This document shows, in pieces, positions 5,601 through 24,055 of a DNA stretch of 64,000 nucleotides. The notes beneath the pieces are model-generated. The model did no database searches and was not told the origin of the DNA. It was given only the letters and a program-made list of their open reading frames with translations. The DNA is from Trypanosoma brucei (taxonomy: Eukaryota), in assembly GCA_000002445.1 (NCBI GenBank), contig CP000071.1, positions 2,240,001-2,304,000 of the forward strand, read 5' to 3'. Positions within the stretch are counted from its first letter, which is position 1. Every line of letters begins with the position of its first letter. A program made the translations under genes and the position numbers.

Positions 5601-6360
5601 GAGCCTTTTGTTCCGGATTACATAAGTTGTTTTTGAAAATAACTGATCAGTAAAGCAACCAAAACAGGAGGCAACTGAACATTAAAAAAAAAGAATAGTG
5701 GCGTGTTTTATATATTGTTTGTGTATTTGTTGTGTTCAAGTTCCCTATTGTATATCTAGTTACTCATTTCCGTGCTCCTTAGCGTTAGCCCTCCATTTTT
5801 TTTACTCCCTTAAGTCTCGAGCACAAGGAGAGAAGGAGAGAAGGAGGGAAGGAGAGGAAAAATTGCGGAGAGGAGCGTGGGGTGGGGACAATTAAACGGA
5901 GAGGAAAGATTTGCTTTTTTAAATTTCATTTATATTTATACATATTTTGACGTCATTTTGTTGGGAAGCGAGTAGTAAATTCTTTCCACCAGTGAGAAAG
6001 CAAAAGAAGTTGCAAGGGGGTTGACTCGTCCGTTTGTTTTGCCTTACTGTTTTGCTGGTTGAGTTGATTCGGCTCGACTTGAAGTGTGGGGCTCCTGAAC
6101 CAACCAAAAGATTAACCGAAGGTTCTGAGTGTAGGAGGTGCAGTGAAAAAGTAGCGGTAACTTCAAAAACAAAGGCATATAAGGGGGAAGGGAATCACCG
6201 TGACATTTATACTAAATCTTGCATATACCAATTTACAAATATATAGCGTTGTGAAGCAACTGGGGCATTGCCAAAAGGGTGTGAAATAGCCAGGGATACA
6301 GCAGGGAGAAAGACGCGGTGCACGCACGGTGCGAAGGAGGGAAGTAAGAGGGAGGAGGAG

Positions 6361-6442
6361 ATTCTACTTCCCTTTTTGGTTTTGCTTTATTCTTATTATC
6401 ATTATTATTGGAACACAACTTGCATTAAATTTTTGTTATTGA
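6361..6442 (+). promoter_or_regulatory. Polypyrimidine tract with a downstream AG, a candidate trans-splice acceptor region for the CDS at 6545
   Basis: T/C-rich run (cctttttggttttgctttattcttattatcattattatt) followed by AG dinucleotides about 100 nt upstream of the ATG. Kinetoplastid mRNA processing uses a polypyrimidine tract plus AG. Confidence 0.45.
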
Positions 6443-6471
6443 GGTCTTCATCGTTTGAATTGCTTCGTTAA

Positions 6472-6498
6472 ACACACACACACACCCACACACACAAC
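6472..6498. repeat. (CA)n repeat about 50 nt upstream of the first CDS
   Basis: The run acacacacacacacccacacacacaac is read directly from the sequence. Confidence 0.85.
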
Positions 6499-6544
6499 GC
6501 CCTCAACAACGACACCGACTTAAACACGCTCACAAAATACGCAG

Positions 6545-9500
6545 ATGGGGGCTGTGCCCAGCCGTGAGTCCTTGGGGCGCGGACTGTGCCAAATACCAGA
6601 TTATGGGCAGAAGCACAAAATGGTGCTCATTCCCTTAACGAGAGAGTTCTTCCCGTCACCCGACTGTTTGCTCTTACGGCAGCTCTTTGAGGCGCGGAGG
6701 GATCCGTTTGTCCATTACTATCACACATTCGATGAGGGGTTTGCTAAGGCGCAAGCGCCAGATCCTGCTGTGGACGCTGACGCCGCAAAACTTTATGATC
6801 TCCAGGGTCTTGTTGCTCCATCAACCAGCGCCTCCGCTACCGCCCATCTCGTTGAGGGCAAGGCATGGCGTGCTGATGACTTTGTGCCTTTTAGCTGTAC
6901 ACTGGAAGAGTTCTACGACTCGTATGTGTGCCGTATGGGCGAGCGCCGCATATACGATACAGATGAACAGATGCTCAGGTTGTGCACGCGGGACCCGAAC
7001 GCGATCCGCCCTGTGCCGTGCGCGGTAGCGTTTGCTTATAACTCTGCCCCCACGCCCTCCGTACTCGGTAATAAAGAGGCGCTTGGTGGGGAGGTCATGT
7101 TGCGTGAGGATGGTAGTAATAGTGAACTGGGTAACAGCGGTGGGGAAAGTAGAGCTGAGGTAGGGGATGCAAAGGGCAGTACGCTAGAGGAAAGCAGCAT
7201 GCTTTTTGGATTGTACGTGCGTATCGTTGGTTTCGTTGGTGGTGTGAGTGACATCTGCCCGCATGGTTGTAACGATGTGTTGCTGGAGGATACGTTTCAA
7301 CTACAAGTGTTTCTTAACAAGTCGGTTGGAGACCACAACTTTGTACACGCCTTCATAACGGCCGTTTATACCTATGTAAGGCAATGGCGTGAGGCAGCGG
7401 TGATGCACATAGGGAGTATTGAGGACCAAAGGCAACCGACGGGACGTGGCTCGGTTGAGGTAGGGGAAGGGGGACATTCTAAGGTTTCCTCCACTATGAG
7501 TGGCGAGAAGCCGTTGATGACACCTCCTGCTGCGTCTGTTGTTATTGCATGCAAGCGGACCAACGTTCCAATGCTATGTTTCCAGCGGGGGTTGCGAGCG
7601 ATGCTATCACGACTCCTAGGCATTGTGGAGTCCGAGGGGATAAGTAACCCCGGAGGGCCGTGTTGTTGTCGGTGCCGCAGAAAAAATGATTGTATTCTTC
7701 AGACGCATAAATTAGCAGCTGGGGTTCCGTTGGGTACGCCACAAGACGGCGATACCAAAGTTGTCAGCGAATGTTCTTCTGCTCCTTCTTTGGAAAAAAC
7801 TACCATGTTGGAGAATGTCTTTGACATGTGGTTGAATGGCGACGTAGTGTTTGCATGTATTCCAAAGCAAATTGTAGCACGTGCTTTGGAATGTGTTGGG
7901 ATGCGCATGGGTTGCCCAGAGTGCATAATGGACATTGTGCGACCAAAACGTACTGAAACGCGGGCGGGCTGTAACACGGAAGTGAGGACGGCGCAGTCTA
8001 ATCCCCATGTCGGAGTGGCCCGGGATGTGTGCTCGCTGCACTCAACTGCCGATGCTTTTTGCCCACAAGATGCCGTTAACGCATTGGCTACCACTGCCGC
8101 TAAGGGTTCCTCCTCAAAAGGCTATGGGGGCGGTCTCAAAGTGTGCGACTCTGAGGCCGCTGCCACTGAACTACCTGCACATCAAAAGCTGCATGACGTA
8201 TTGGGCGAGACTGTGGTTGTGGAGGAATGGCCAGTGGATGGGATCGATCTGGTCAGCTTTACGAACGCCAAGGGGGATACCATCGACCGCCCGGCGCACT
8301 TGTATTGGGTAGTTGGGCGTTCAGTGACTGCCCAAGAAACCGCAGCCTCTGCCTTTTTCTCATGGTGGGCTGGTGGGAGGCTAACGGTTATGGGAGGAGG
8401 ATGTGACGTGTCGAACGAAAGTGAGCACGAAAGAAGCAACAGTGGGAAGGGGAAAGTGGATGAACGCTTGTCGGTCGGAGAGTTGCTTTACCTCAATATG
8501 AACCCATGCCAGTCAAATGCGATGCGTCAGTGGGTTCTTCAGCGTACCACGCTCCCACTGGAGGAGCTTTTGCTATCTGAACTACATGACAGCTGCAAGC
8601 TGGCACGACAGGCGCCGGTTGATGCAGAGAACTGGCTGCGCCATACTGACATCAGCGGCCCACGAGAGCGTGACAGGTCTCTACTGCTACCGCTAGGTGC
8701 TGAGGATACCAATGGGGAAGACTTGTCAGAGTTTGCTGTTGGTGTAAGACAACTTGTTGGCGAAGGTTCGCTTTGTTTGTGGCGGGTGACACTCGTGACA
8801 GGTGCAGTGCGCGCTATAGCGGTCACACCGCACTTTCTTCGCCCGCCACGGAAAAAGCGGGCGCGCAGAAAGCCAACCCGGCGCCCGTATGCTCCGGAGC
8901 AGGCTAATGCAACATCGACGGCGGTGGATGGGGCTGCACCGGTCAACAGCTTTGGGCCCTCAGCGGAGACGCAGGCATCCAAGGGCAGAAGAGCAACGAG
9001 GTCAAAGATGGTAACAAGACGGTCGGTACCATTACCAACAGCTGTCGTATCGGAAGGTGTGCTAAGGAGCGACGAACGGTCCGCCATGTCGCCATCGTTG
9101 AGCCAAGGGCTCTGCAGGGAGGGCGGAGTCCCTCCGATGGCTCCTCCTAACACCACGCCTTCTGTGGGTTTTGGTCGTGTGCGGACTCGGCAGCAGCCTT
9201 GCTGCTACGGAAACCCTGCGCTGGCTTCCCATATGGAGGTGCCTGCATTTCCCCAAGGTCAACAATCCGGTTTTGTTGCTTTCAACCAGCCAGTTGTCGA
9301 TTCTAGTCATTCCCCCGTTTCTGATGCAAGCTATGCAAATAGGCGTACGTCGACTCCTTTTCTGAGCCGCCGAACTTCAAGGGAGGATCAACTTGGGTTT
9401 ATGCCTTACGACAGTTACAATGTTTCGCGCCGCATAAGCAGTGACGTAACAAGCCAACGCTTATCTACGGCTTCCTTCACCCATTTCCCTCGTTGGGACG

Positions 9501-9859
9501 GGTGTGGAACCATCTGGCCCTACACAGGTTCGGAGGAACGGCCGAGTGTTACACGGCATTCGTCAGCGGTGGGAGGTGGGTGCACTCCCTTTTTTCAGCC
9601 GGCAGATGGATGGTCAAATTCCATGCACTCACGTTCTGGCACCCGCGAGGACTTTCACCCTTCCTGTGCCCTCCACCGGACCGGCGGAGGTTTCAGCAGC
9701 AGCGGCGGCTGCAGCAGTGAAAGTGTTGCAGGTTGTGCCCGCACTCAATTCGACTTCATTTCTGCGTCTGGACTTGGAACTGATGAGGTGTACGCCGATG
9801 GGGCGGAGGTGAGAACCCCAACACTTAATGTAACGGTGCGGCGTGGCCTGCAACACTGA
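6545..9859 (+). CDS. Member 1 (1104 aa) of a tandem paralogue family. Conserved N-terminal domain with an MGAVPSRE N-myristoylation consensus; Ser/Thr/Gly-rich C-terminal half. Function unknown.
   Basis: 3.3 kb ATG-initiated ORF. The N-terminus (MGAVPSRESLGRGL...VLIPLTREFFPSPDC) is shared with the ORFs at 12048 and 21587. Blocks YDTDEQMLR, PVPCAVAF, IVGFVGG and YVRQW are conserved among the paralogues. Confidence 0.8.
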   Translation: MGAVPSRESLGRGLCQIPDYGQKHKMVLIPLTREFFPSPDCLLLRQLFEARRDPFVHYYHTFDEGFAKAQAPDPAVDADAAKLYDLQGLVAPSTSASATAHLVEGKAWRADDFVPFSCTLEEFYDSYVCRMGERRIYDTDEQMLRLCTRDPNAIRPVPCAVAFAYNSAPTPSVLGNKEALGGEVMLREDGSNSELGNSGGESRAEVGDAKGSTLEESSMLFGLYVRIVGFVGGVSDICPHGCNDVLLEDTFQLQVFLNKSVGDHNFVHAFITAVYTYVRQWREAAVMHIGSIEDQRQPTGRGSVEVGEGGHSKVSSTMSGEKPLMTPPAASVVIACKRTNVPMLCFQRGLRAMLSRLLGIVESEGISNPGGPCCCRCRRKNDCILQTHKLAAGVPLGTPQDGDTKVVSECSSAPSLEKTTMLENVFDMWLNGDVVFACIPKQIVARALECVGMRMGCPECIMDIVRPKRTETRAGCNTEVRTAQSNPHVGVARDVCSLHSTADAFCPQDAVNALATTAAKGSSSKGYGGGLKVCDSEAAATELPAHQKLHDVLGETVVVEEWPVDGIDLVSFTNAKGDTIDRPAHLYWVVGRSVTAQETAASAFFSWWAGGRLTVMGGGCDVSNESEHERSNSGKGKVDERLSVGELLYLNMNPCQSNAMRQWVLQRTTLPLEELLLSELHDSCKLARQAPVDAENWLRHTDISGPRERDRSLLLPLGAEDTNGEDLSEFAVGVRQLVGEGSLCLWRVTLVTGAVRAIAVTPHFLRPPRKKRARRKPTRRPYAPEQANATSTAVDGAAPVNSFGPSAETQASKGRRATRSKMVTRRSVPLPTAVVSEGVLRSDERSAMSPSLSQGLCREGGVPPMAPPNTTPSVGFGRVRTRQQPCCYGNPALASHMEVPAFPQGQQSGFVAFNQPVVDSSHSPVSDASYANRRTSTPFLSRRTSREDQLGFMPYDSYNVSRRISSDVTSQRLSTASFTHFPRWDGCGTIWPYTGSEERPSVTRHSSAVGGGCTPFFQPADGWSNSMHSRSGTREDFHPSCALHRTGGGFSSSGGCSSESVAGCARTQFDFISASGLGTDEVYADGAEVRTPTLNVTVRRGLQH

Positions 9860-11765
9860 CCTTTTGCAAAGCTTCATAGTGATGTATTGGTTTTAAAGAG
9901 CGCTCTACGTCTTTAAGTGGGCATCGTTGGGGAAGTGAGAATAGGTGCCGCTATTGCGGAATCTTTCACTAACTAGACCCAAGCACACTCTGGCTGATGA
10001 AGGTGCGCGCGTGGCGTCTGCTCCGTGAAAAATTCTGCCCTTTCTCTGTGCTGAGTGCTGCACGATCCCATATTTTGGGAAGAAACAAGTTGTGATAAAG
10101 GCAGTCTGTATCTCATGGTCTGTACGAGCCTAGGGAAAAAAAATGTAAATAGAATGTACTAAGCCAGTAAAGGTTAGGCAAGCGCACAGGCGCGGGTAAA
10201 GGGTCAGGAAAAGAGACTGAAATAAATGTGGGAAACTTATGAGGTTGAGCAAGTCGGCTTCGTCCTTTCCTTCCCCTTCTCATCGTTTCCTCTATTGTTG
10301 CCATTAAATGAAATGACCCCATTGGGAGTGGAAAAGACGTTTGTGAAGGGTCCTTAATTTATGTGATGTTTTGCTGCCAGACGTGTTGCGTCGTACTCAT
10401 TCGTTGAAGTGTATTGTGGCATACCATTCGTCGAAAGCAGTAGCAGCAACGCCAACAGCGTATCTCTTTTCTTCCGTTCTTATCTTTCGTTACTACAAGC
10501 GCGAGGGGTATCATTCTTCCTGCGCATCATTATCTCTGTTGGAGATCCTACGGTCCCGTGGCAAGCGTATGCGGATGCGTTTGCATCGTTGCACTTGTTA
10601 CCAGCGTATACCGATAAGTACTCTCACAGGAGTTCGTGTTTACGTACACGACATGCTTTTCTATTTTTTCCCCCTCTCCTGCTGCTTATTTTTCTTTGAA
10701 ATACATACACGCACACGCCGGTGTTTTAAAGTCGTTAACAGACGACATGCGATTTCTTCCCGGTATGACTCAATATCCTTTTTTTTCCTCCGCCCCACAC
10801 GTTCACCAATTTTGTTTTTCTGTTTCGTTTTGTTTTGTGTGGATGTGTTGTCCACTGTCTCCCCTCGACATTACTTTCCCCTTGGCACCTGCTTGCGTAC
10901 GTTACTCGTGCTTTTGCGGTATCAATCCCCTTACCTCATCTCCACCCGCTCTACCATTTCGATTTCCCTTTTATATCTTCTTTAGTTTCATGGCGTCCCC
11001 TGGTTGAATGGCGTTCGTGCTTCTCTTTTCATTTCGTTGCTGCTTCAACAGAACCTTCGGTGAGTGGAGACTCGAACAGTGACAGCAAGGGGGGTGTATG
11101 AATGCGTCGTCGGCGTCAGAGGCAGGCGAAATAAGTAAACAAAGGACACGCGCGGTTGTACAGGTGGTTGAATATAACATGCATACTGCTTTCACCCTCG
11201 ATGTTGCTTCTTTTTGTGGCAATAATGTGGCAATGAACGAAAATTTTCTTGTGACATTTGTTGTTTTGGAATTTATTAACATTATTATTGCTATTGTTGT
11301 TGTTTTACGGGTGAATTTGATTGCCATACGGCCCTTTCTCTTGCTCTTGCTCTTTTTTTTGTACACTGAAAATCCCTTTAGCGTGCCCCGTGAAGCTAGA
11401 AAAGGACGAGAGTATTTTAAGGATCTACTGGAAAAAGGGAATAAGAAACAACAACAAAAACAACAAAAGAGGGGCAAATCCAACTGTTGAATACGAACAT
11501 AATTTTCAACGTCAAATAGCCCAATATTTCATTTTAGCTAGAGGGAAAAGATCAGAAGGGCGAGGTACGTCTTCCTTTAAATTTTCCTCTATTTGTTTAA
11601 GGACAAAAAATATAATAGTCGATTGCTTAACCCACGCGAGGAGGCCACTAAATCTACGGGAATATACGCAAACCTATACAGTCATTGGTCGTGACATCGC
11701 CGTGTGGCCACTACTTCCTTATCCTCCCAAAGTGGGTGATATCAGAACACTGATTGTCGCGTGGT

Positions 11766-11827
11766 AGGCCTGTTTTTTTCTTTTTCTTTTTTTTTTGTTG
11801 TTGCCCCTTTTTACACTACTTGTGAAT
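11766..11827 (+). promoter_or_regulatory. Polypyrimidine tract plus AG, a candidate splice-acceptor region for the CDS at 12048
   Basis: The run tgtttttttctttttcttttttttttgttgttgccccttttt, followed by gaatag, lies about 220 nt upstream of the ATG. Confidence 0.45.
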
Positions 11828-12047
11828 AGCCGGGGGAAGCGCCGCTGAAAGGGAAGACACATATACATATATACACAAGGTACACCCCCACAAAATTGTC
11901 CGCATCTGCGCTTACCGGTGTGTGTTAACGGTAAAAAAGGAGGAGGAAGGGAAACAGATTGGGGAATAAGCAACAGAGATAATTATATAAATAAATATAT
12001 AACTTTTCATTGGATTACATTAACATTATATATATAACATTTTTGCA

Positions 12048-14747
12048 ATGGGTGCTGCTCCAAGCAGGGAGACACTACGACGGGGGCTATACAACGTGCC
12101 AACACAGATGAAGAATAATGTTGACAGCTCCCGATCTCAAAGCAAACCAGACATTGTACTTATTCCGCTCATTAAAGAATATTTTCCATCGGCCGACTGC
12201 CCGCTGTTCGTGCAGTTTCACAAGATGCGGTGTGATCCGGGTGTGAATTATTACTTCCGCCACCCTCTGTACCCGGGTGATTTGAGCCGCATTCCCAACG
12301 TGCATAGCAATGATGCCAGGTCTTCTAACCGATCGAGAGATGCACTGTATTCTGAATTTGTGGAGCAGACAGAGGAGAGACTCTTTGATACAGATAATGA
12401 GATGCGACAGGCACATGAGCTTTCCATGAGTGACAGGTCTGCCGGTGGATCCCCTTCCTTCCATATGGAGGGGGCGAAAACAGCAAACGTTGGGAAAAAA
12501 GTTCTTCCGATCATATGCGCAGTGGCTTTTCTCCACGATCGCGAGAAGTTTGAACAACTTCAACAGACTCAGGGGACTCCGGGGGGTAGCAGGGTGCCAC
12601 ATGTTTTGATGGGGAAGGAAAACTCGGATATTCTTGAAGGAAAGGTTGTCAACATCATCGGTTTCTTTGGTATGTTACCAAGGGAGATAGAGCGGAAACC
12701 GTTGACATCTCCGGTAATCTTCAGTCCCGTAAGTCCCGGATTAAGTGCGACCGGAAAAGGCATTGCGGCACCAAGTATGTTGAAAAATTCTCTTTCTCTG
12801 CCATGTACAGCTAGGGGGCCCAGCCATGGTTCCTCGCAAGACCTTCAGCAACTGATTGCACCGCTCTCTTCACAGGCTTCAGTGGCTAGTGGGAACGAAC
12901 TTCGCAACCGTCCCAGCTTTGTACCTACGCCGCACGTGCCACCTGAACGATGCCCGTTGACAGCATCCGCTGGTGCCTTTTCACTGGTGTCCTCTCTCGG
13001 CGGGACGCCAGCTCGGGAACCGTCGGCGAGACAGCGACCCTTCTTGCAGTCAGAAGGTTTGTTACGGGAAATGGACCAGGCGTTGTCTTACCGTTGCACT
13101 GCGTTGGAGGAGAGGCTTAGCCGGTTTGGTTTGCCGGCACCTGCGGCGCCGGAGCCGCTTACAGCTGTTGTTTTTATGACCAAGTCTGCGGGAGAGCAAA
13201 ACCTGTGTCGGGTGACTTTTGTGGCCGCCAAGACTTATCATGGCCAGCTGGTTGAGGCTGGGGTACTAAAGCAGCGTGGAAATGGCCCTTCACCACCGCT
13301 GGAATCCGAAAGGCGGTATCTCCCACCTTTGGAAACATTTAGTTTTTCATCGCTGATGACAAACGTACCGTTTATTTCATTCGTGTACGAAATGCGTTGT
13401 CGCTGGGGACGCTTTGGGTTTTTCTCTCGACGTGTGGACTCACCGTCCTTACGGATGGGTTCTCTGAATGCTTCCTCCAGTTTTACTTACGGCTTTACGG
13501 GAGGCGCACATTCAGAGGCACCGAATCCGGAAGAGACACACAGGGGCTTCGCCATGTGGCTGACAAAAAACGGTGTGTTCCATGGCCGAATCGAAAGAGA
13601 ACTGGCGGAACATCTTTGTTTTTGCATGGCAGAACAGCCCGACTTCATGTCAGTCCCAGCTGCAACACTTCCAATAGGTGGGGGTTACTGGCGGTTCCGT
13701 GGCCTTGTTGACCGTAACAACCCACGACCTATTCAGCTTTGTGGCGACGGTGCTGAAGCGGCGGACCCGCTTGATGTGTATGTCATGGGTTCCCCAGCGG
13801 TTGGTGGTTTTGACGAGGGTGATGTTTTGAAATATGACCAAACGAGCCGTTCGTGGGTGGCCAACCGGGACATCCCACTCGATGCTGTTGTCCTTGCGGC
13901 AATGCGGCCATTTTGCAAGGCTGCGCGCACAGCTCCACCCGATGACATCGGGTGGGTGACTATTGAGGTGGAAGAGCAAGACGAGATGGGGGTTGAAGAC
14001 CAGGATCATCTTGAGACGGCGGGAAAGAGGGATATGGATACCGGGGCAGTTGTTCGTCAAGAGGACCGTGATGGTACTGTGGTGAGAAAACGAGTCCACG
14101 TTCGTGAAGGGAATTTCTATATCTATCGTTTTGAGCTGAATGGTGAGGTGCATTACCACGGTACTGTGCCAGATTTCGCGAATCCCAACAAAAAGAGGGC
14201 ATCGCACAGCAGTTCTGTCGGGGCGAGGAGTGTAGCTCCCATGGGGCCAGCGGTTGTCGCACGGCGTTTTGATAATACGAACGAAAGGGGCCGTCAACAT
14301 TCTGTTGGATTAACAGCAGACCGCAGCACCAACGAGCACTCATTGTCTGTGACTTCAACGTTTTCCCCCCCCTTTGTTGAGAGTTTTATGGGGAGCGAAA
14401 GGACGAGTGCAACGTTCCTAGCAAGCCCTCTCCAGCCCGTAAGGGAGGCCATCAGTCGCTCGGTGGGGACGGTCTCGTATTCTAATCGGGGCTATGAGTC
14501 GACCGGGAGCCAGTCCTCTTTTCCTGTTGTGCCTGTGACCCCAGATACGATGTTTCCTCCATCGAGAGGGCTGACAACGCCGGTGGCGCGTCGCAGGTCG
14601 ACATTTGTGCCAGTTGGCTCGGAGGTCGAAGTGGATGAGTCGCAACGGGACACGAATGAATCGGACGGAGGGCCAACAGCATTTGTCAGGCGCTTCATAG
14701 ACTCAACGGTTTATATATGGGACTGGAGATATTGCGCAGATAGATAA
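12048..14747 (+). CDS. Member 2 (899 aa) of the MGAxPSRE paralogue family. N-myristoylation consensus. Function unknown.
   Basis: 2.7 kb ATG-initiated ORF. The N-terminus (MGAAPSRETLRRGLY...IVLIPLIKEYFPSADCPLF) and the blocks FDTDNEMRQ, PIICAVAF and IIGFFGMLP align with the ORFs at 6545 and 21587. Confidence 0.8.
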   Translation: MGAAPSRETLRRGLYNVPTQMKNNVDSSRSQSKPDIVLIPLIKEYFPSADCPLFVQFHKMRCDPGVNYYFRHPLYPGDLSRIPNVHSNDARSSNRSRDALYSEFVEQTEERLFDTDNEMRQAHELSMSDRSAGGSPSFHMEGAKTANVGKKVLPIICAVAFLHDREKFEQLQQTQGTPGGSRVPHVLMGKENSDILEGKVVNIIGFFGMLPREIERKPLTSPVIFSPVSPGLSATGKGIAAPSMLKNSLSLPCTARGPSHGSSQDLQQLIAPLSSQASVASGNELRNRPSFVPTPHVPPERCPLTASAGAFSLVSSLGGTPAREPSARQRPFLQSEGLLREMDQALSYRCTALEERLSRFGLPAPAAPEPLTAVVFMTKSAGEQNLCRVTFVAAKTYHGQLVEAGVLKQRGNGPSPPLESERRYLPPLETFSFSSLMTNVPFISFVYEMRCRWGRFGFFSRRVDSPSLRMGSLNASSSFTYGFTGGAHSEAPNPEETHRGFAMWLTKNGVFHGRIERELAEHLCFCMAEQPDFMSVPAATLPIGGGYWRFRGLVDRNNPRPIQLCGDGAEAADPLDVYVMGSPAVGGFDEGDVLKYDQTSRSWVANRDIPLDAVVLAAMRPFCKAARTAPPDDIGWVTIEVEEQDEMGVEDQDHLETAGKRDMDTGAVVRQEDRDGTVVRKRVHVREGNFYIYRFELNGEVHYHGTVPDFANPNKKRASHSSSVGARSVAPMGPAVVARRFDNTNERGRQHSVGLTADRSTNEHSLSVTSTFSPPFVESFMGSERTSATFLASPLQPVREAISRSVGTVSYSNRGYESTGSQSSFPVVPVTPDTMFPPSRGLTTPVARRRSTFVPVGSEVEVDESQRDTNESDGGPTAFVRRFIDSTVYIWDWRYCADR

Positions 14748-16952: not shown

Positions 16953-18632
16953 ATGCAGTTTTGTGGCGGGCTTGTTTGCCGCACACCACCACGACGATTT
17001 GCATGGAAGCAAACTTACAGCCAACTTCTACCATCACACTCCATGGTTCCCTCTGCGTACATATGCGGGCGTTTGCGCCAAGCGCACCACTACTCCGGTC
17101 GATTTGCTTGTAGCGCTGCTTCTGTTGTGGTAGAGAGTCCCTCTGATGGAGCTGGGATCCTCACTTTCACAGCCAACACAGTTGATGGCGCTGCGCGTGC
17201 GCTCAGCGAAATAATGCATGAAGCTCAGGCGCTTTCTCATTCTGTGGAACTTCGCGCGTTGGAGCGCCTGGAGGCCATCCTAAGGCAAAACGCTGACTTA
17301 CTGGCATTAGCGGAGGCCCTTGCTACGGGAATATGTTTGCGTGAAGCTCGGAACTCGATTGGGTTGGCGGCAAACGTCGTCGGAAGTTGTGCGGAACGTC
17401 TGCGTGGGTGCCCCGCCTCGGTCGCCGCCAGCGAGACCATTGATGTGGAGGACTTACTTCGTTCGTTGGGCTGCAGTGACAGGGGTATCAACTGTCACGG
17501 TATCAGGTGTGCAACTGGCGGAGGTTCCTCGGTAGCGCTGTGCTACACATCGGCCAATTACCCCCTTCAGAGAGGTGTTGAGGCTATCGCCGCCGCTCTT
17601 TTGCGAGGTCATGTGGTCGTCTGGCTGCCATCACTTGAAGCACCGCTCTCCGCGTTGTGGCTTATGCAGTTGCTTTGCCGCTCTTTCAGCTGCCAAGCTG
17701 ACGAAAACGACAGTCGGAGTGCCACTAGTGATGACAAGGGCTGCGATCCGGGCGTTGGTATGCATACCGTGGACCCTATAAATATCATTTTGTATCGCGG
17801 TGAAAACTCAATTTTACTTGAAAAGGCTTTCGGCGTACGAGGCGCCCGTGAAGGCTTGGAGCTAGTAGGGTTGACGAACGGCTTTACAGAAGGCCAAACA
17901 AACCAGTTTTCCGTCCACTTGTCGGATAGCCAAGTGAGACGTTCGGATATTAGCGCCTTGTACGCCATTGATTGGCACCATCGGTTGACTAAACCTGCGG
18001 TTGCCATTGTTAGTGTTTCCCAAGGGGAATCACAGTCATTTTCACCTTCTATCCCATTGACGGCATGCGCGGCAGTGGCGAAAACAGATTCAGCGCCTAC
18101 ACACGTGGAATGTGTAGCTGAAAATTTCTTTCATCACGCCTTTCACTGCAATGGGAGAACACTGCACCCACTTCACGTGGCGTTCATTCCCCACGAGGAT
18201 GTGCTACCGATACTCCGTTACCTTCGGGAGCGCATACGACAGGTGCGCATTGGGCACAGTCTTGACAGCAGTGTTGAGCTTGGCCCGCTTCCCACTTCTA
18301 AACACCTCTCTTTGGTGAAGGAACTTATTGAGTCTGCTACTAGCGGTGACGATGATGCTGGGGTCTGTATTCAACAGGTGTGCGGCGGGTTCGAGGTAGC
18401 GATGCCTGCAGGTTTTTTTTGCCTTCCCTGTGTGCTGTATGCCCGGCTGCCGAATGAAGCACCAGGTGCAGTTTCTTCGATGGTTGAACGAGTCATGAAG
18501 CTGCGCACGGAGTTGGATGAATTGGGAGGTGGTCCTGTAGCTCTTGTGTGCGCCTATGACCTTCGGCACCAGTTAGATGAGTTACACGTATGGAAGGACA
18601 ACGCGCAACATTATGTTGTGCATGACTGGTGA
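16953..18632 (+). CDS. Aldehyde-dehydrogenase-superfamily-like protein (about 560 aa), divergent. The catalytic-Cys position appears substituted, so it may be non-catalytic.
   Basis: The track ORF starts at a TTG (16929); the first ATG is 16953. Motifs recalled from ALDHs are present: DVD-AV-like TVDGAARAL; ERLEAILRQNADLLALAEALATG matching ER.xxL.KLADLIE...LA.LE; LPSLEAPLSALWL matching KPAE.TPLTAL; LELVG matching LELGG; and RIGHSLDSSVELGPLPTSKHLSLVKELIESA matching the +vG.P.d..t..GPlis..q..kv..yIe motif. The GQCCxAGSR catalytic-Cys region is replaced by FHCNGRTLHPLH. Confidence 0.6.
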   Translation: MQFCGGLVCRTPPRRFAWKQTYSQLLPSHSMVPSAYICGRLRQAHHYSGRFACSAASVVVESPSDGAGILTFTANTVDGAARALSEIMHEAQALSHSVELRALERLEAILRQNADLLALAEALATGICLREARNSIGLAANVVGSCAERLRGCPASVAASETIDVEDLLRSLGCSDRGINCHGIRCATGGGSSVALCYTSANYPLQRGVEAIAAALLRGHVVVWLPSLEAPLSALWLMQLLCRSFSCQADENDSRSATSDDKGCDPGVGMHTVDPINIILYRGENSILLEKAFGVRGAREGLELVGLTNGFTEGQTNQFSVHLSDSQVRRSDISALYAIDWHHRLTKPAVAIVSVSQGESQSFSPSIPLTACAAVAKTDSAPTHVECVAENFFHHAFHCNGRTLHPLHVAFIPHEDVLPILRYLRERIRQVRIGHSLDSSVELGPLPTSKHLSLVKELIESATSGDDDAGVCIQQVCGGFEVAMPAGFFCLPCVLYARLPNEAPGAVSSMVERVMKLRTELDELGGGPVALVCAYDLRHQLDELHVWKDNAQHYVVHDW

Positions 18633-21560
18633 GTGCGCGGCGATATATTTGAGGAATAGGTGGGGACGTGAGCAGATGCCACATTAAGTGTTGCGTGGTA
18701 TGCCAAGTTAAATCGTACAGCTGCCGTGGAAATTAGGAGAAGAAAGTGCCGCAATACGCATTTGGTGTTAACAGTGAAACCGTGTATATGCTTGTGTGTG
18801 TGTGTGTGTGGAATTGGTGATACGGAAAGGAAATGTGCCAACAGTTCGGCGGCCAAAAAGCGGTACGATAACCTTTGTCCAGTACGCGCAGTCTGTGTTA
18901 CGTCGCGGAAGTGGAGTTTCTTTGTGCCATGGCTTGCCGTTATTGCTATTGTTATTACTGTTATTATTATTATTATCATCATCATCGGTATTAATCCATC
19001 TATTTATTTCCTGTCTGATGTTATGCCTCGAGCCATACCGCAATTCCCGCATCCTCTTTACTGTTTGCCTTCTTCATCTTTCTTTCCTCTGAAAGGGGCA
19101 CCGTGGCGAAGAAACGGCAAAAAGCGAGAAGGAAGAGGGAATAATAGGGAAGCAAAATCATTTGGGGTACTTGGAACAAGAGAAGGAGAGAGCAGAAAAC
19201 GAAAAAAAAAATAGAAATAGAAAAAAGGACTCCAAAGGGGACGTTGTGCGCGTGTAGGTGCCCAGCCGAAGACAAGCAACTATTAAGCAAGCAAACAAGC
19301 AAGCAAGTGAAGAAGAGCAAGAGGAGACGAGAGAATAATACGTTAAGTGGCAGTTAGTTGTACGTATACGCACATATTTATATATATACATATACATTTA
19401 AGTACACATATAAAGTGAGGAAACAGAATAGGGTGGAGTGCATCTGTAAAAGTCCCATCCCCGTTGTTTAGTGCACACGCAAACTTTCAAAACGGACAAA
19501 CGCGCGTTTCCGTGTGAAGAGGCCATTCTATTGCTGACACGTCTCCGCGTAGCACCTGTGCCGTCGTTTTGAATATTCGTCTGTTTTTTTTCCTTCGTTT
19601 TCTTGATAAAAGAAAATCACATATAGTTAAATTTGACTTTTGCTGATTTAAATTTTTTTTTTTTAAAGAAAAGAAAAGCGGTGTGGAATATACGTTGTTG
19701 CGGGAGGGGAAAGAAGAGACGGGAGGAAACAAAACCAGAGGTGTGGAAGCATCGAGTTCTATAACGGGAATAATATTAAATCATAGGGGGGGGGTTGAAA
19801 ACACGCAAACAGACAGGAAAAAGAAAACAACAATAACGAGAGGGGGAGTCCTGACGACGCACTGACAAGAAGTATCAAATCAGTATAGTTTTTCTTTTTT
19901 CTTTTTTCTTTTGCATCTTTCAACGACACCAGAAAAAGGGGAATAAATAAATTGTAAACTTCTTTCTGTACGCGTACTACATACGTATATACATACATAT
20001 ACATATTTATACATAGGAAAAAAATTTCGTTTCTTTTTTTTTTTTCTTTAAATTTTCGTCCACCAATCGCTCCTCTGCTTTAAACAAAACGGGACAAGGT
20101 AATAAAACAAGAGTAAAATAAATTCAAGGAAAGTAAGAGAGTCGTTTACTTTGTAACTTTTTGCTCTCTTTGCATTTGCATTTGCATTTTTCTCCTCTTT
20201 TTTGTTTTTCTCCTTTGTAATTTTATCTTTCATTATTAAAATCATAATTGTCACCATTTTCTACCGCCCGTCTTTCTGTTTCTGCTTTGCTCTTCGCGTG
20301 GATTCATTTTTTCTTTGTCACTAACTCCCTCAACTACAGTGTGTTACTTTAACACAAACCTAGCGGTTGTGCGTGTGTGCGTGTGTGTGTGTGTTTTAAA
20401 TCTTAGATAACCCTCATTGTCATTTTTTTTGATTTATATTTTGCCACCGCAGAGTCCGTGGAAGTAAAAGAGAGGAATAACAAAAACGATAAATAATAGG
20501 GAAAAAAAGAAGGGGAAAGGAGAGAAAAAGGTAAAAAAGGGAGAAAAAGGCGTGACAGTAGTTGTGGTTGGAGGGGGACCCCGAATAGAAAAAAAAAAGG
20601 AAGGAAGAAAAAAAAAAGAGGGAAAAGGACGGAGAGAGAAAGAGGGATCCGGGGACGGCGCAATTATATAAAAAGATATACAACACACACGTGCTATCGC
20701 TTCTTTGTTCTGTGGTTTATACAAACACATTCACATCCGTATTAGTTTTCTTATTAATATATCGTGCCGCGCCACACATTTCTTGTGCAGACATATATAT
20801 TTATACACATTTGTTTTTATATAAAAGGTGAGGAATTGAAGGAGTTTTTTTTTCTTTGCGCCATCGATCTATTCGCTTTCACCACAAGTCGCCACCGTCA
20901 TTGCGCCATTAATTTACTACTCGCGGTTATTCCATCAAGGGTGGAAAGGGAGGGATTGACAGGAGATAAATAAAGCAATTCAAACCTTTTTTTTTTCTAA
21001 AAAAAGTGAGAGAAGGAAAAAAAAAGAAGAAAGTGACGGGGTGAAAACAAGTAAATCCAATAATATAAGGAGGTATAGTTATAAATAAATAAATATATAT
21101 TGGGGGAGGCGTACAAGTTAGAATATAAAGGTATTTCCAAGTAGCTTACTCTTGACATCAGTTGTTTTAATAATAATAATAATAGCATTGACTTTAGGGT
21201 TCTTGTTGACCATTTTTTTTTAAAAGGAAAACAAAATCGTTCTGCTTTTTTTTTTCCGTTTGACTAAAAACCTTTCCCTACATTGTGGAGCGGGTGCCGT
21301 TTTTTCAGTGTCTTTTTTCTTTGTAATTTGATCAGTTGAGATCGGGGAGGAGTGGGGTTAAGGGTTAGGGGTTTGTTGGATTTTTGTCTTTTTTTTTCCT
21401 TGAGAAGAGACCCAAGTAAAGAAGGAGGAAAAAAAAAGACAGATTTGTAAAGAGAGGAATTTAGAACGGAAGGGACCCAACAGAGATAAAGAGGAGAGGA
21501 GAGGAGAGGTGTGTGTGGTAGTTCCTTTTTTTTTCTTTACATTAATTTTTTCGTGAGGTG

Positions 21561-21580
21561 TGTGTGTGTGTGTGTGTGTG
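21561..21580. repeat. (GT)10 repeat immediately 5' of the start codon of the CDS at 21587
   Basis: gtgtgtgtgtgtgtgtgtgtg lies directly before acgaatATG. Confidence 0.9.
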
Positions 21581-21586
21581 ACGAAT

Positions 21587-24055
21587 ATGGGAGCACTGCC
21601 GAGCAGGGAAACACAACACCGCGGTTTGTATAGCCATCGTCATGGGCGCAATAGGCGGAGTGAAGTTATTTTAGTTCCTCTTACCAGTGAGTTCTTTCCG
21701 AGTGAGAGCTGCCCTCTTTTTACGCATTTATTCCAGGCGAAGCACCACCGCACCGCCAAATATTACTATCGAGCAACACGCCCCGCCGACACGGATTGGG
21801 AATCCGATTATTATTGTCAAACGACCGCCCACGTCCGTAATATCAACATAACTGATTCAGATGATTCCGCAAAGGTCGGACACTTTGAGACATTCTTCAC
21901 GGATGATATCTCAGGACTATATCACAGACTCGTGCGCGAGACCGAGTACTGCATGTGTGAAACGGATGAGGAGCTTCGGACACGATACGAAGAGCAGATC
22001 CGCCAGCAACAGCACCATCAGCGAAAGCAGCGACTGCAAAGACCGGAGAAATCAAGCGATTATGGGACTGCTGGTGGCCGCTCGTACGAGGAATATTTTG
22101 GATTTGCTTCCGGCGCTTACACCAGTGGCTACACTGATGCTTTGGCCTTCATGAAGGGAAGGGAGCAGCACACGCACCGCAATGCGTGTGGTACGCATGT
22201 AACTTCATCGAGTGCCTATTACCTTCGTCCTATTCCATGTGCAATTGTGTCGCGGTCCGAGGCACACAAATCTGCATCTGAGACTGGGGTTGAGTTCCTT
22301 GGTTCAACGGTTAAGGTGCTCGGTATGTTTGGGCTTCTTCCCTCCATAATCCCAGTGACTGTGCATGGCGAAGTGATGGAGCAGCATATGCTGAAGGCCA
22401 CAATGTTCGTTGACAAGGATGTCGGCGACCAGATATTGGGTAACGTAGTGATGCTTGCTGTCCACATGTACGTCCGACAATGTATTGAGGCCCGTATCCG
22501 AGCTCCATACATTCCAATGGTTCCCATGATTCTTCGGACACCCATATCAAACATCCCGATGCTACAGTTTGTGCGGGAGATGCGAGTGCGTCTTCGTGGC
22601 TTGTTGGAAGCCGGTGCACCGCGCCGGGGCGGAGGAGCGGGAAGGCGTGTGGGTTCATTCCACGGCACTGAGGGAACTCGCGAGGCGGTGGAGGCATCTT
22701 CCCGTTGTGAGGCAGATATACTGTACCTTTTTGAAGAGGATGTACCCAATGCCATTTCTGCCCACCAACTTTTCCTTGATCCGGCGGAGGCACAGTCACT
22801 AAGGCTCCACCCGGCACAGAACACCAATTCTGATGGTACCATTCCGATTCTCCTCATGTCGGGCGTGAATGTGCAGGCGGCACCACTAACACATCCCTCC
22901 GTTACGAGTATGTCACATGTGCGCGTCCCGCCGTGGGCGCTTGAAGGCGCCTCCGACTCTGCAGGCGGTGGACCATCCGAAGCGTCCCCGCAGCGTGAAG
23001 CCTTCCAGGCCACGTCGCTTTTGGCAACACGACGGAACCGCTTCCGCATTTGGGTGGAAGGTGGTCGGCTGTGCATTTGGGCGAGTGCCGCGTACGCTCG
23101 GCGGGGGTGTCTTATGCTCGCTCAGAAGCTTACACAGACGGTTGACAATAATCTTTTGCCAGTACCACGCCCGTGGAATTACCGTGGTCTTTTGCGCGGT
23201 GGTATGCCAATGCCGGAGCCAGAGCTCGCCAATGATGTGTTCATTGTGGCTGAGGACATGCCGAGTATGGGGCTTTATCAGGGTGACGTTCTCCGTTGCA
23301 GCACTCCCGTGGAGATCGCTGATCAGCAACAACGGCTGTCACTGCACGGAACATCCGCAACATCTTCGTCCACGTTACTCGAGGCGATATGTGTGCACAG
23401 CAAGAAAAGTGTGACCAGCGCCTCCACACCTATGGAACCGACGACACCCGGTGGGCAGCAAAAAAGTCAGGAGAGTTTTGCAAGCAGTCACCCCACTAAT
23501 TTACTTCTACAGGATCCGGGCGAGGCCCCACCGAATGCCTTCTGGGTGTGCATTCCTTTCGACCGCGACTGTGTGAGTGCGGGACCTAATGAAAGACGGC
23601 AACAACAACATCAACTGGACACTGTGTCCCATCGGGCAACCAATGTGGAAGAGGTTCTTCTCTCGTGGATCAAAATAATTTCACTCAAGACCCGCGAAGC
23701 CAGTGAGGAGGATGTGTATTGGGTGCGTGACCCCACAACCGGAGCGCCACTCCGGGTGGATCGCTACGTTATACGCCGTGTGGAGCATGATGGCATGCGT
23801 TATTTCATTGGTGTCACCCCGCGCTTTGTTGGGCAACAGCGCCGATTGGAGAGAATGTTGGAAGACATCAAAGCTCAAGATGCGGGAAGTCCGGATTTGG
23901 ACGTGGAGCGGGAGGGGTTTCACATGTCGCCCACACACGCTGGCACAGCTTTGGAGGGTAATGATGACGACAGTGAAGACGATGATGCAGATGATGGATG
24001 CGCTGCCATGGCGCAGATGCTCAGCGGGCAGTCAAATATATTTTACAGGGAATAG
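21587..24055 (+). CDS. Member 3 (822 aa) of the MGAxPSRE paralogue family. N-myristoylation consensus. Function unknown.
   Basis: The track ORF begins at a GTG inside the (GT)n repeat (21560). The first ATG (21587) gives MGALPSRETQHRGLY...VILVPLTSEFFPSESCPLF, which aligns with the N-termini of the other two paralogues. Shared blocks are ETDEELR, RPIPCAIV, VLGMFGLLP, YVRQC and IPMLQF.R..R.RL.GLL. Confidence 0.75.
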   Translation: MGALPSRETQHRGLYSHRHGRNRRSEVILVPLTSEFFPSESCPLFTHLFQAKHHRTAKYYYRATRPADTDWESDYYCQTTAHVRNINITDSDDSAKVGHFETFFTDDISGLYHRLVRETEYCMCETDEELRTRYEEQIRQQQHHQRKQRLQRPEKSSDYGTAGGRSYEEYFGFASGAYTSGYTDALAFMKGREQHTHRNACGTHVTSSSAYYLRPIPCAIVSRSEAHKSASETGVEFLGSTVKVLGMFGLLPSIIPVTVHGEVMEQHMLKATMFVDKDVGDQILGNVVMLAVHMYVRQCIEARIRAPYIPMVPMILRTPISNIPMLQFVREMRVRLRGLLEAGAPRRGGGAGRRVGSFHGTEGTREAVEASSRCEADILYLFEEDVPNAISAHQLFLDPAEAQSLRLHPAQNTNSDGTIPILLMSGVNVQAAPLTHPSVTSMSHVRVPPWALEGASDSAGGGPSEASPQREAFQATSLLATRRNRFRIWVEGGRLCIWASAAYARRGCLMLAQKLTQTVDNNLLPVPRPWNYRGLLRGGMPMPEPELANDVFIVAEDMPSMGLYQGDVLRCSTPVEIADQQQRLSLHGTSATSSSTLLEAICVHSKKSVTSASTPMEPTTPGGQQKSQESFASSHPTNLLLQDPGEAPPNAFWVCIPFDRDCVSAGPNERRQQQHQLDTVSHRATNVEEVLLSWIKIISLKTREASEEDVYWVRDPTTGAPLRVDRYVIRRVEHDGMRYFIGVTPRFVGQQRRLERMLEDIKAQDAGSPDLDVEREGFHMSPTHAGTALEGNDDDSEDDDADDGCAAMAQMLSGQSNIFYRE

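What the first reader, a model, noticed from the sequence alone, without database searches (positions are those of the whole stretch)
6545..24055. A tandem triplet of rapidly diverged paralogues has a conserved N-myristoylation-type N-terminus (MGA[VAL]PSRE)
- Three ORFs (6545-9859, 12048-14747, 21587-24055) share about 60 colinear N-terminal residues: MGAxPSRE[ST]..RGL[CY]....[ILV]L[IV]PL[TI].E[FY]FPS..C[PL]LF.
- They also share scattered blocks deeper in the protein ([YFC][DE]TD[EN][QE][ML]R; P[IV][PI]CA[VI][AV]; [IV][VLI]G[FM][FV]G; YVRQ).
- Their C-terminal halves are almost unrelated: Ser/Thr-rich in one, acidic in another.
- Gly2 with Ser6 (MGxxxS) matches the classic N-myristoyltransferase substrate consensus, which predicts membrane or flagellar association.
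- The family is interleaved with an unrelated ALDH-like gene (16953-18632), so the triplet arose by dispersed rather than purely head-to-tail duplication.
- Old duplication with a conserved lipidation head and free-running tails is the pattern seen for membrane-anchored scaffold or surface-skeleton proteins.
Basis: seen in the sequence. Interest (0 to 1): 0.6.

Follow-up and report, generated by a model that had tools for sequence, protein, structure and literature searches.

The report
N-myristoylated PuREBP1-family gene trio

Summary
The three ORFs exist as described and are true paralogues. Pairwise BLASTP E-values are 2e-11 to 4e-14, and family-invariant residues run from Gly2 to about residue 750 of ORF C. 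The window is T. brucei TREU927 chromosome 8, and the ORFs are XP_847602, XP_847603 and XP_847605 (inferred Tb927.8.7750, 7760 and 7780).

They are the chr8 duplicates of Tb927.4.4580, 4.4570 and 4.4550. Tb927.4.4550 is PuREBP1, a published RNA-binding repressor of the NT8 purine-transporter mRNA.

The family is ancient and specific to trypanosomatids, with at least 8 members in Leishmania. It did not diverge recently or rapidly.

MG[AV]xPSRE is nearly invariant, and no upstream start codon is possible. Published chemical proteomics shows N-myristoylation of relatives:
- a YnMyr-modified peptide, GALPSHETHER, from the Leishmania PuREBP1 orthologue;
- NMT-inhibitor-sensitive labelling of the A orthologue in L. 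donovani and the B orthologue in T. cruzi.

The "membrane or flagellar scaffold" reading is not supported. The ALDH-like gene is an ancestral neighbour, kept on chr8 and lost from chr4.

The parts
6545..9859 (+). ORF A, 1104 aa, XP_847602.1 (inferred Tb927.8.7750). It is the chr8 duplicate of Tb927.4.4580 and an A-type member of the PuREBP1 family.
   Evidence: The sequence is an exact match in TREU927 chr8. It is 47% identical to the chr4 copy with dN/dS 0.25. Orthologues are found in T. vivax, T. theileri and Leishmania, where the orthologue is LdBPK_311540. The gene-ID pairing comes from PMC2212663.
12048..14747 (+). ORF B, 899 aa, XP_847603.1 (inferred Tb927.8.7760). It is the chr8 duplicate of Tb927.4.4570 and a B-type family member. 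This copy evolves faster than its chr4 partner.
   Evidence: Identity is. It is 53% identical to the chr4 copy with dN/dS 0.25. The relative-rate test gives 136 versus 39 unique changes against T. congolense, chi2 54. This agrees with PMC2212663 Table 2.
21587..24055 (+). ORF C, 822 aa, XP_847605.1 (inferred Tb927.8.7780). It is the chr8 duplicate of PuREBP1 (Tb927.4.4550).
   Evidence: It is 74-75% identical to PuREBP1, which UniRef names 'Purine-responsive element-binding protein 1'. dN/dS is 0.20. The protein was detected in bloodstream-form proteomics (PMC11867338).
6545..6571 (+). Codons for MGAVPSRES, the N-myristoylation signal of A.
   Evidence: It fits the PROSITE NMT pattern and the motif is near-invariant in the family. 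An in-frame stop lies 24 nt upstream.
12048..12074 (+). Codons for MGAAPSRET, the N-myristoylation signal of B.
   Evidence: The T. cruzi B orthologue K4E6H0 is azidomyristate-labelled and sensitive to an NMT inhibitor.
21587..21613 (+). Codons for MGALPSRET, the N-myristoylation signal of C.
   Evidence: The L. donovani orthologue LdBPK_311430 yielded the YnMyr-modified peptide G(+534.33)ALPSHETHER.
21659..22738 (+). GNAT-like domain of C (residues about 25-384), interrupted by three disordered inserts. It carries the shared blocks and the invariant residues F274, K277, G280, N322 and P324.
6614..7727 (+). The equivalent GNAT-like region of A, placed by alignment (F256, K259, G262, N340).
   Evidence: Alignment A3 mapped to window coordinates. 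This region was not modelled separately.
12147..13440 (+). The equivalent GNAT-like region of B, placed by alignment (F376, K379, G382, N439).
   Evidence: Alignment A3 mapped to window coordinates. This region was not modelled separately.
22994..23896 (+). Conserved C-terminal module of C (residues 470-770), of unknown fold. It contains the invariant residues G562, W653, L692, R703, W712 and F747.
16953..18632 (+). ALDH-like gene (presumably Tb927.8.7770). It is an ancestral neighbour and not a family member.
   Evidence: PF00171 partial hit at 4e-17. It is 36% identical to the syntenic T. theileri ALDH gene, blastp E 3e-117. It is absent from the chr4 cluster.

Best explanation
**Identity (shown).** The three genes are the chromosome-8 copies of an ancient trypanosomatid gene cluster. 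In T. brucei the cluster was doubled by the known chr4/chr8 segmental duplication. Their chr4 partners are Tb927.4.4580, Tb927.4.4570 and Tb927.4.4550. Tb927.4.4550 is PuREBP1, the purine-responsive RNA-binding repressor of NT8 mRNA.

**Shared architecture.**
- An invariant N-terminus, MG[AV]xPSRE[ST].
- An N-terminal core predicted to be GNAT-like, broken up by disordered inserts.
- A conserved C-terminal module of unknown fold.
- A free-running low-complexity tail.

**Mechanism.**
- *Shown in relatives, inferred here:* the initiator Met is removed and N-myristoyltransferase acylates Gly2 during translation.
- *Inferred:* the acylated, structured N-terminal segment is part of the functional core, either docked on the domain or forming a partner interface. 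It is not a permanent membrane anchor. This would explain why conservation extends to P5, R7 and E8. It would also explain why an N-terminal tag on PuREBP1 abolishes PuREBP2 and RNA binding.
- *Inferred by homology:* the chr8 proteins act as subunits of selective post-transcriptional regulators. Their specificities have diverged from their chr4 partners.
For: **Identity and synteny**
- The sequences match TREU927 chr8 proteins exactly.
- The chr4 cluster has the same order.
- The gene pairs are listed in PMC2212663.

**Age of the family**
- Each of A, B and C has its own orthologues across trypanosomatids.
- The profile search finds only 116 clusters, and nearly all full-length members start MGxxPS.
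- L. donovani has at least 8 members.

**Selection**
- dN/dS is 0.20-0.25 overall and 0.05-0.12 in the first 60 codons.
- The ORFs are intact in the T. brucei subspecies and T. equiperdum isolates in the database.
- Tb927.8.7780 protein has been detected.

**Myristoylation**
- There is no upstream start codon, and the NMT pattern is universal in the family.
- L. donovani: a modified peptide was found for LdBPK_311430. LdBPK_311540 and LdBPK_200770 are in the high-confidence block.
- T. cruzi: K4E6H0 (B orthologue) and K4E6H6 are depleted by DDD85646. Both are cross-referenced to the T. brucei myristoylome hit Tb927.4.4580.

**Function of the relative**
- PuREBP1 binds the PuRE element and NT8 mRNA together with PuREBP2. 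An N-terminal TAP tag abolishes both interactions, while a C-terminal tag is tolerated.

**Structure**
- Residues 1-55 are modelled as ordered, with pLDDT 74-91.
- The fold is GNAT-like.
Against: - I could not access any direct lipidation data for the three window proteins themselves. The T. brucei myristoylome paper is not held.
- The L. donovani B orthologue, LdBPK_311530, was detected but did not respond significantly to NMT inhibition.
- The NMT predictors disagree for several members: 'high' from one tool and 'no' from the other.
- RNA binding has been shown only for PuREBP1. A and B share just 20-28% identity with it.
- The loss of function on N-terminal tagging could be steric and unrelated to the lipid.
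- The claim that the N-terminus docks on the domain rests on pLDDT values alone. I could not inspect coordinates.
Confidence: 0.72

Rival explanations
1. The proteins are membrane- or flagellum-anchored scaffold or skeleton proteins, held on the membrane by the myristoyl group, with tails that evolve freely.
For: - N-myristoylation is well supported.
- The first 35 residues carry a net basic charge: 5-6 Lys/Arg against 3 Asp/Glu, plus 3 His in C. This could give a myristate-plus-basic membrane signal.
- About half of the mRNAs bound by PuREBP1/2 encode membrane proteins. Action close to a membrane is therefore conceivable.
Against: - PuREBP1 is reported as cytosolic, and it purifies as a soluble RNA-binding complex.
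- No Cys lies in residues 3-14 to allow dual acylation. Cys15 occurs only in some A-type proteins.
- The N-terminal segment is modelled as ordered rather than as a free anchor.
- There are no transmembrane or cytoskeletal repeat domains, and Pfam finds nothing.
Confidence: 0.13
2. The GNAT-like core is a working acyl-CoA-dependent acyltransferase. On this reading the family consists of enzymes that acylate proteins, RNA or metabolites, and RNA binding is secondary.
For: - The family-invariant residues F274-x-x-K277-x-x-G280 sit at the strand 4 to helix 3 junction. N322 sits at the start of helix 4. GNATs bind CoA at these positions. The mapping of those positions is my own inference.
Against: - No sequence-level match to any GNAT Pfam model was found, even at E<=10, in any of 23 members.
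- Profile searches against PDB sequences also found nothing.
- The motif is K-x-x-G-[DE]-[QH] rather than Q/R-x-x-G-x-G/A.
- Foldseek matches are not significant; the best E-value is 0.2.
- The model is of only moderate confidence, with mean pLDDT 56.7.
- No catalytic residue can be assigned.
Confidence: 0.1
3. The chr8 copies are redundant leftovers of the segmental duplication. They are drifting towards pseudogenes and have no distinct function.
For: - They have diverged strongly from the chr4 copies: 47% and 53% identity for A and B.
- B on chr8 is significantly accelerated.
- Neighbouring genes were lost reciprocally after the duplication.
Against: - dN/dS is 0.20-0.25 overall, with an even more constrained head region.
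- Long intact ORFs are 98-99% identical across TREU927, DAL972, T. equiperdum and T. b. equiperdum.
- All family-invariant residues are retained.
- Tb927.8.7780 protein has been detected.
Confidence: 0.05

Closest known systems
PuREBP1 (Tb927.4.4550), subunit of the PuREBP1/2 purine-responsive RNA-binding complex (Rico-Jimenez et al. 2021, PMC8053114)
   Same: - ORF C is its chr8 duplicate: 74-75% identical, colinear over the full length, with the same N-terminus (MGALPSRETQ) and in the same cluster position.
- A and B are more distant members of the same family.
   Different: - The window genes have not been characterised. They have diverged, and C shows about 21% mismatches to PuREBP1 over ungapped aligned columns.
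- PuREBP1 is essential by RNAi. ORF C therefore does not substitute for it, unless the RNAi also hit ORF C.
- The PuREBP1 paper reports no recognisable motifs. It does not mention paralogues of the protein or myristoylation.
Experimentally N-myristoylated trypanosomatid proteins: LdBPK_311430, LdBPK_311540 and LdBPK_200770 (Wright et al. 2015, PMC4372256); T. cruzi K4E6H0 and K4E6H6 (Roberts & Fairlamb 2016, PMC4974623)
   Same: - They are orthologues or paralogues of the window proteins and share the MGAxPS[RH]E start.
- They were labelled with myristate analogues in an NMT-dependent way, or yielded a directly modified Gly2 peptide.
   Different: - They are from other species.
- In those papers they appear only as 'hypothetical protein' rows in supplementary tables. 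They were not recognised as one family or linked to PuREBP1.
GNAT (GCN5-related N-acetyltransferase) fold superfamily, including members that act on RNA-linked substrates (AtaT/TacT toxins, ATE1)
   Same: - The predicted order of strands and helices over residues 25-384 follows the GNAT order.
- Conserved residues sit at the usual cofactor-site positions.
   Different: - There is no detectable sequence similarity.
- Three long disordered inserts interrupt the fold.
- Motif A is only partly kept.
- No activity is known.
Dually acylated flagellar or pellicular proteins of trypanosomatids (calflagins, HASPB, SMP-1, CAP5.5); named from my own knowledge, with SMP1 and CAP5.5 also appearing in the myristoylome tables
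   Same: They have an MG start that is acylated by NMT.
   Different: Those proteins have Cys at positions 3-5 for palmitoylation and short, unstructured heads. The window proteins have no such Cys, and their N-terminal segment is conserved and predicted to be ordered.
T. brucei chr4/chr8 partial duplicons (Jackson 2007, PMC2212663)
   Same: The window lies inside the chr8 duplicon. The pairs 4.4550/8.7780, 4.4570/8.7760 and 4.4580/8.7750 are listed there, together with the faster rate of 8.7760.
   Different: In the passages I retrieved, that paper treats the pairs one at a time. It does not note that the three pairs are related to each other, or that they share a lipidation signal.

Membership tests
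N-myristoyltransferase substrates | Gly at position 2, directly after the true initiator Met | tested here: met
   All three ORFs start MG. In-frame stops lie 24-33 nt upstream, so no other Met can serve as the start.
N-myristoyltransferase substrates | Sequence fits the substrate consensus G-{EDRKHPFYW}-x(2)-[STAGCN]-{P} | tested here: met
   GAVPSR, GAAPSR and GALPSR all fit. So does every full-length homologue retrieved. The dedicated predictors quoted in the published tables give mixed calls.
N-myristoyltransferase substrates | Gly2 conserved in orthologues | tested here: met
   Gly2 is invariant in alignments A2 and A3. The exceptions are truncated or mis-started gene models.
N-myristoyltransferase substrates | Myristate (analogue) attached to Gly2 in cells and lost on NMT inhibition | not testable with these tools
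   - This has been shown in the literature for orthologues and paralogues: the LdBPK_311430 peptide, LdBPK_311540, LdBPK_200770, and T. cruzi K4E6H0 and K4E6H6.
- Tb927.4.4580 is listed as a T. brucei hit.
- No data for the three window proteins could be accessed.
PuREBP1 family | Full-length, colinear sequence homology to Tb927.4.4550 | tested here: met
   - C is 74-75% identical over 819 aligned residues.
- A and B are significant by BLASTP, and they share 28 invariant columns from G2 to F747.
- The family HMM hits only these three ORFs in the window, at E about 1e-217 to 1e-233.
PuREBP1 family | Stable complex with PuREBP2 and specific binding of mRNA 3'-UTR elements | not testable with these tools
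   This is known only for Tb927.4.4550.
GNAT superfamily | Core fold with the order strand1-helix1-helix2-strand2-strand3-strand4-helix3-strand5-helix4-strand6 | tested here: met
   - The elements of the AF2 model follow this order.
- Caveats: this is a model of moderate confidence, only ORF C was modelled, and Foldseek was not significant.
GNAT superfamily | Sequence-profile match to a GNAT family | tested here: not met
   No GNAT family was found by hmmscan for the three window proteins, or for any of 23 family members at E<=10. Profile searches of PDB sequences found none.
GNAT superfamily | Motif A, Q/R-x-x-G-x-G/A, at the strand 4 to helix 3 junction | tested here: inconclusive
GNAT superfamily | Binds acyl-CoA and transfers the acyl group | not testable with these tools
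   This needs biochemistry.
Dually acylated membrane or flagellar proteins | Palmitoylatable Cys within the first few residues after Gly2 | tested here: not met
   No Cys lies in residues 3-14 of A, B or C. Cys15 occurs only in A and is not conserved among A orthologues.
Aldehyde dehydrogenase (the neighbouring gene at 16953-18632) | Full-length match to PF00171 | tested here: inconclusive
   The hit is above threshold (62 bits, 4e-17), but its best stretch covers only profile positions 11-176 of 461. The T. theileri orthologue also carries PF00171. Catalytic residues were not examined.

The most novel reading that the evidence does not exclude
The PuREBP1 family is a trypanosomatid-specific set of lipidated proteins built on a GNAT fold. 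The preserved cofactor cleft (K277, G280 and N322 in ORF C) binds a small molecule that carries an adenine nucleotide, such as an acyl-CoA or a purine nucleotide. The Gly2 myristate docks on the same domain, or switches on and off it. On this reading each paralogue is a metabolite sensor that couples nutrient status to the fate of a small set of transporter mRNAs. This would make the cleft the missing purine sensor of PuREBP1. The diverged chr8 copies in this window would be sensors with new ligand or mRNA specificities.
Probability: 0.15. Interest if true: 0.8.

Novelty: new member of a known kind. Interest (0 to 1): 0.4.

Why it matters
Trypanosomes control genes almost entirely after transcription. 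How RNA-binding proteins sense nutrients is an open question. PuREBP1 is one of the few cases linked to a defined nutrient, purines. Its authors found no recognisable motifs in it.

This analysis ties together three separate literatures that had not been connected in the papers I could search:
- the chr4/chr8 duplicon;
- the Leishmania and T. cruzi myristoylomes;
- the PuREBP1 study.

Together they show that PuREBP1 belongs to a family of at least 8 proteins with an experimentally supported N-myristoylated start. That offers a simple explanation for why N-terminal tagging inactivates PuREBP1.

The predicted GNAT-like core gives a concrete place to look for the ligand. It also suggests point mutants to test: G2A, K277 and G280, and N322.

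For the window itself the result is modest. The three genes are uncharacterised paralogues under purifying selection. Their lipidation signal is already documented in relatives.

Tried and rejected
- **Pfam.** Scans of A, B and C, and of 23 family members at E<=10, found no domain.
- **PDB sequence profiles.** Searches with profiles A2 and A3 gave nothing meaningful.
- **Foldseek.** The full model against the PDB gave no significant hit; the best E-value was 0.2.
- **ZNK1.** I checked whether this nutrient-responsive regulator from a 2026 preprint is a family member. It is an unrelated zinc-knuckle/PIN protein.
- **More family members in the window.** The family HMM and a motif scan over all six-frame ORFs found only A, B and C.
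- **Gene remnants.** I looked for decayed remnants of the missing 4560-like gene, the ALDH-like gene and the D-type and E-type family members in the intergenic gaps. There were none.
- **The chr4 middle gene.** I tested whether the 1080-aa gene in the chr4 cluster is a family member or ALDH-like. It is neither.
- **T. brucei myristoylome paper.** I tried to read it by DOI and by PMC id. It is not held.
- **Centromeric repeats.** I looked upstream of A for the repeat array reported between Tb927.8.7740 and 7750. There is no tandem array, protein domain or Rfam hit in 1-6544.
- **Model coordinates.** They are not available to scripts, so I could not measure how the N-terminus packs against the domain.
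Full report
**1.

The window carries three + strand ORFs at 6545-9859 (A, 1104 aa), 12048-14747 (B, 899 aa) and 21587-24055 (C, 822 aa from its first ATG). In-frame stop codons lie 24, 27 and 33 nt upstream of the three ATGs, so the MG start cannot be an internal Met of a longer protein.

The three are true paralogues. BLASTP gives A-B 4e-14, A-C 2e-11 and B-C 6e-14, each with further significant colinear blocks deeper in the proteins. Identity is 42-54% in the first 60 residues and 17-24% across the rest of the conserved body.

One statement needs correcting. The C-terminal halves are not unrelated. In a 23-sequence family alignment, invariant residues run from M1, G2, P5, R7 and E8 to G562, W653, L692, R703, W712 and F747 of ORF C. 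Only the tails beyond the last conserved block differ:
- A: 335 aa, 22% Ser/Thr;
- B: 184 aa, 25% Ser/Thr;
- C: 70 aa, 27% Asp/Glu.

**2. What the genes are**

The exact protein sequences are in the public collection as T. brucei brucei TREU927 proteins XP_847602.1, XP_847603.1 and XP_847605.1, on a 2,481,190-bp contig (chromosome 8). Copies that are 98-99% identical occur in T. b. gambiense, T. equiperdum and T. b. equiperdum.

Each has a diverged partner on the 1,590,432-bp chromosome 4:
- A is 47% identical to its partner;
- B is 53% identical;
- C is 75% identical.

On chr4 the three partners lie in the same order. UniRef names the chr4 partner of C 'Purine-responsive element-binding protein 1'.

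Jackson 2007 describes the chr4/chr8 partial duplicons and lists the pairs Tb927.4.4550/8.7780, 4.4570/8.7760 and 4.4580/8.7750 (PMC2212663). The gene IDs I give for the window ORFs are inferred from that table, the gene order and the accession order. The Pfam content of the downstream ORFs (SPRY, cold-shock domain) fits the annotations Jackson gives for Tb927.8.7800 and 8.7820.

**3. The family is old and larger than a triplet**

A, B and C each retrieve their own orthologues in Trypanosoma and Leishmania, and B and C also in other trypanosomatid genera such as Leptomonas, Phytomonas and Angomonas. The three therefore split before the trypanosomatid radiation, not recently.

A family profile searched against 1.84 billion representative proteins finds only 116 clusters. 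Nearly every full-length hit starts MG-x-x-P-S. All named hits are trypanosomatids.

The table of all MG-start proteins in the L. donovani myristoylome paper contains at least eight members: LdBPK_311430 (C type), 311440, 311530 (B type), 311540 (A type), 200770, 080630, 080640 and 281770.

In T. theileri the local gene order is: kinase, a D-type member, A, B, an orthologue of Tb927.4.4560, an ALDH-like gene, then an E-type member. The ALDH-like gene is therefore an ancestral neighbour, not evidence of dispersed duplication. After the T. brucei duplication, chr4 kept the 4560-like gene and chr8 kept the ALDH-like gene. No remnants of the lost copies are detectable. The window itself holds only A, B and C.

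**4. Selection**

Against their chr4 partners the chr8 genes have dN/dS of 0.25 (A), 0.25 (B) and 0.20 (C). The first 60 codons are more constrained: amino-acid identity is 90%, 68% and 92%, and dN/dS is 0.12 for B and 0.055 for C (head dS is saturated for A). Synonymous sites are saturated for A and B overall, so those ratios are rough.

B on chr8 is significantly accelerated: 136 versus 39 lineage-specific changes with T. congolense as outgroup, chi2 54. A and C are symmetric. This agrees with Jackson's relative-rate result for Tb927.8.7760.

Tb927.8.7780 protein was quantified in a bloodstream-form proteomics study (PMC11867338). These are working genes, not decaying copies.

**5. The N-terminus is a genuine N-myristoylation signal**

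All full-length family members fit the PROSITE NMT pattern. The exceptions are truncated or mis-started gene models. Published experiments support the modification.

In L. donovani (Wright et al. 2015, PMC4372256):
- The PuREBP1 orthologue LdBPK_311430 gave the directly modified peptide G(+534.33)ALPSHETHER. It is classed as a low-abundance substrate.
- LdBPK_311530 (B type) was detected but did not respond significantly to inhibition.

In T. cruzi (Roberts & Fairlamb 2016, PMC4974623):
- The B orthologue K4E6H0 was enriched 6.4-fold by azidomyristate and depleted by the NMT inhibitor DDD85646 (log2 H/L -1.56).
- The D-type member K4E6H6 was depleted more strongly (-2.14).
- Both are cross-referenced to Tb927.4.4580, the chr4 partner of A, in the T. 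brucei myristoylome hit list.

I could not access the T. brucei study itself. Lipidation of the three window proteins is therefore inferred, although strongly.

**6. What the characterised relative does**

PuREBP1 (Tb927.4.4550) forms a stable complex with PuREBP2. The complex binds the PuRE stem-loop in the NT8 3'UTR and a handful of other mRNAs, and it represses NT8 when purines are abundant. PuREBP1 appears cytosolic.

The authors found no recognisable motifs. In the text I searched, they do not mention myristoylation or paralogues of the protein (PMC8053114).

An N-terminal TAP tag abolished both PuREBP2 co-purification and NT8 binding, while a C-terminal tag was tolerated. That is what one would expect if a free, acylated Gly2 is needed. 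A purely steric effect is not excluded.

**7. Structure**

An AlphaFold2 model of ORF C built on 19 orthologues has mean pLDDT 56.7 and pTM 0.61. It has ordered cores separated by long disordered inserts.

The model's elements over residues 25-384 follow the GNAT order: strand1-helix1-helix2-strand2-strand3-strand4-helix3-strand5-helix4-strand6.

There is no sequence-level GNAT signal. I therefore call the core GNAT-like and do not file the family as GNAT members.

Residues 1-55 are modelled with pLDDT 74-91. This suggests the conserved N-terminal segment is part of the folded unit. It would explain why P5, R7 and E8 are conserved beyond what NMT requires.

**8. Most likely mechanism, and its rivals**

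*Best reading (confidence about 0.7).* These are co-translationally N-myristoylated members of the PuREBP1 family. The acylated N-terminal segment belongs to the functional core or to a partner interface. The proteins act in selective post-transcriptional control, with specificities that diverged after the chr4/chr8 duplication.

It is weakened by:
- the reported cytosolic localisation;
- the lack of a palmitoylation Cys;
- the ordered N-terminus.

*An active acyltransferase (about 0.1).* The fold allows it, but no sequence evidence supports it.

*Decaying duplicates (about 0.05).* This is contradicted by the selection data.

**9. Novelty**

Each element is already on record separately: the gene pairs (2007), myristoylation of relatives (2015-2016) and PuREBP1 function (2021).

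I did not find the following in the searchable literature:
- the link between the three literatures, namely that PuREBP1 is a member of a family with an experimentally supported N-myristoylated start and at least 8 members;
- the GNAT-like core.

These give testable hypotheses about how purines are sensed. They rest on one model of moderate confidence.

Noticed in passing
window 14748-21586, compared with L001 12710-19217 and L003 14463-23022: Neighbouring genes were lost reciprocally after the chr4/chr8 duplication. T. theileri has both a Tb927.4.4560-like gene and an ALDH-like gene between B and the next family member. T. brucei chr4 kept only the former and chr8 only the latter. No remnants are detectable by tblastn.
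   Followed up: yes
window 16953-18632: The ALDH-like protein matches PF00171 above threshold, but the best stretch covers only profile positions 11-176 of 461. It is just 36% identical to its T. theileri orthologue. It may be a degenerate or non-catalytic ALDH. The catalytic residues were not checked.
   Followed up: partly
window 12048-14747: The chr8 copy of the B gene evolves about 3.5 times faster than its chr4 partner (136 versus 39 unique changes, chi2 54). A and C are symmetric. All family-invariant residues are still retained.
   Followed up: yes
window 22883-22937 (inside ORF C): ORF C and PuREBP1 share exact nucleotide runs of up to 55 nt; the figures for B and A are 29 nt and 15 nt. 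RNAi fragments or short reads aimed at PuREBP1 could therefore also hit Tb927.8.7780. This matters for interpreting the published PuREBP1 knock-down phenotype.
   Followed up: partly
window 9857-10400 and 14700-14747: A-type and B-type proteins of other species end in a conserved W-D-W motif, for example YVWDWRRS. Window B keeps it (IWDWRYCADR). Both T. brucei A copies stop at RRGLQH or RHGLQH, about 50-60 residues short, and no remnant lies downstream. The truncation therefore predates the duplication.
   Followed up: yes
window 1-6544: The chr8 centromeric 147-bp repeat array is reported between Tb927.8.7740 and 8.7750 (PMC1868937), which is just upstream of ORF A. The window's first 6.5 kb has no tandem array, Pfam domain or Rfam hit. 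Positions 1-2000 are GC-richer (0.52) with negative GC skew, unlike the rest of the window, and carry overlapping ORFs on both strands with no matches.
   Followed up: partly
window 58363-62259: A receptor-type adenylate cyclase, with two periplasmic-binding-protein-like domains and a cyclase catalytic domain, lies at the 3' end of the window. SPRY-domain (28435-32043) and cold-shock-domain (34966-36480) genes lie in between. All are on the + strand, as expected for one polycistronic unit.
   Followed up: no
L. donovani LdBPK_311430/311440, 311530/311540 and 080630/080640; L. martiniquensis LSCM1_01426 and 01445: Family members tend to occur as adjacent pairs in Leishmania, and several more lie within about 30 genes on chromosome 31. 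T. brucei chr8 lacks the D-type and E-type members found next to A and the ALDH-like gene in T. theileri and T. grayi.
   Followed up: partly
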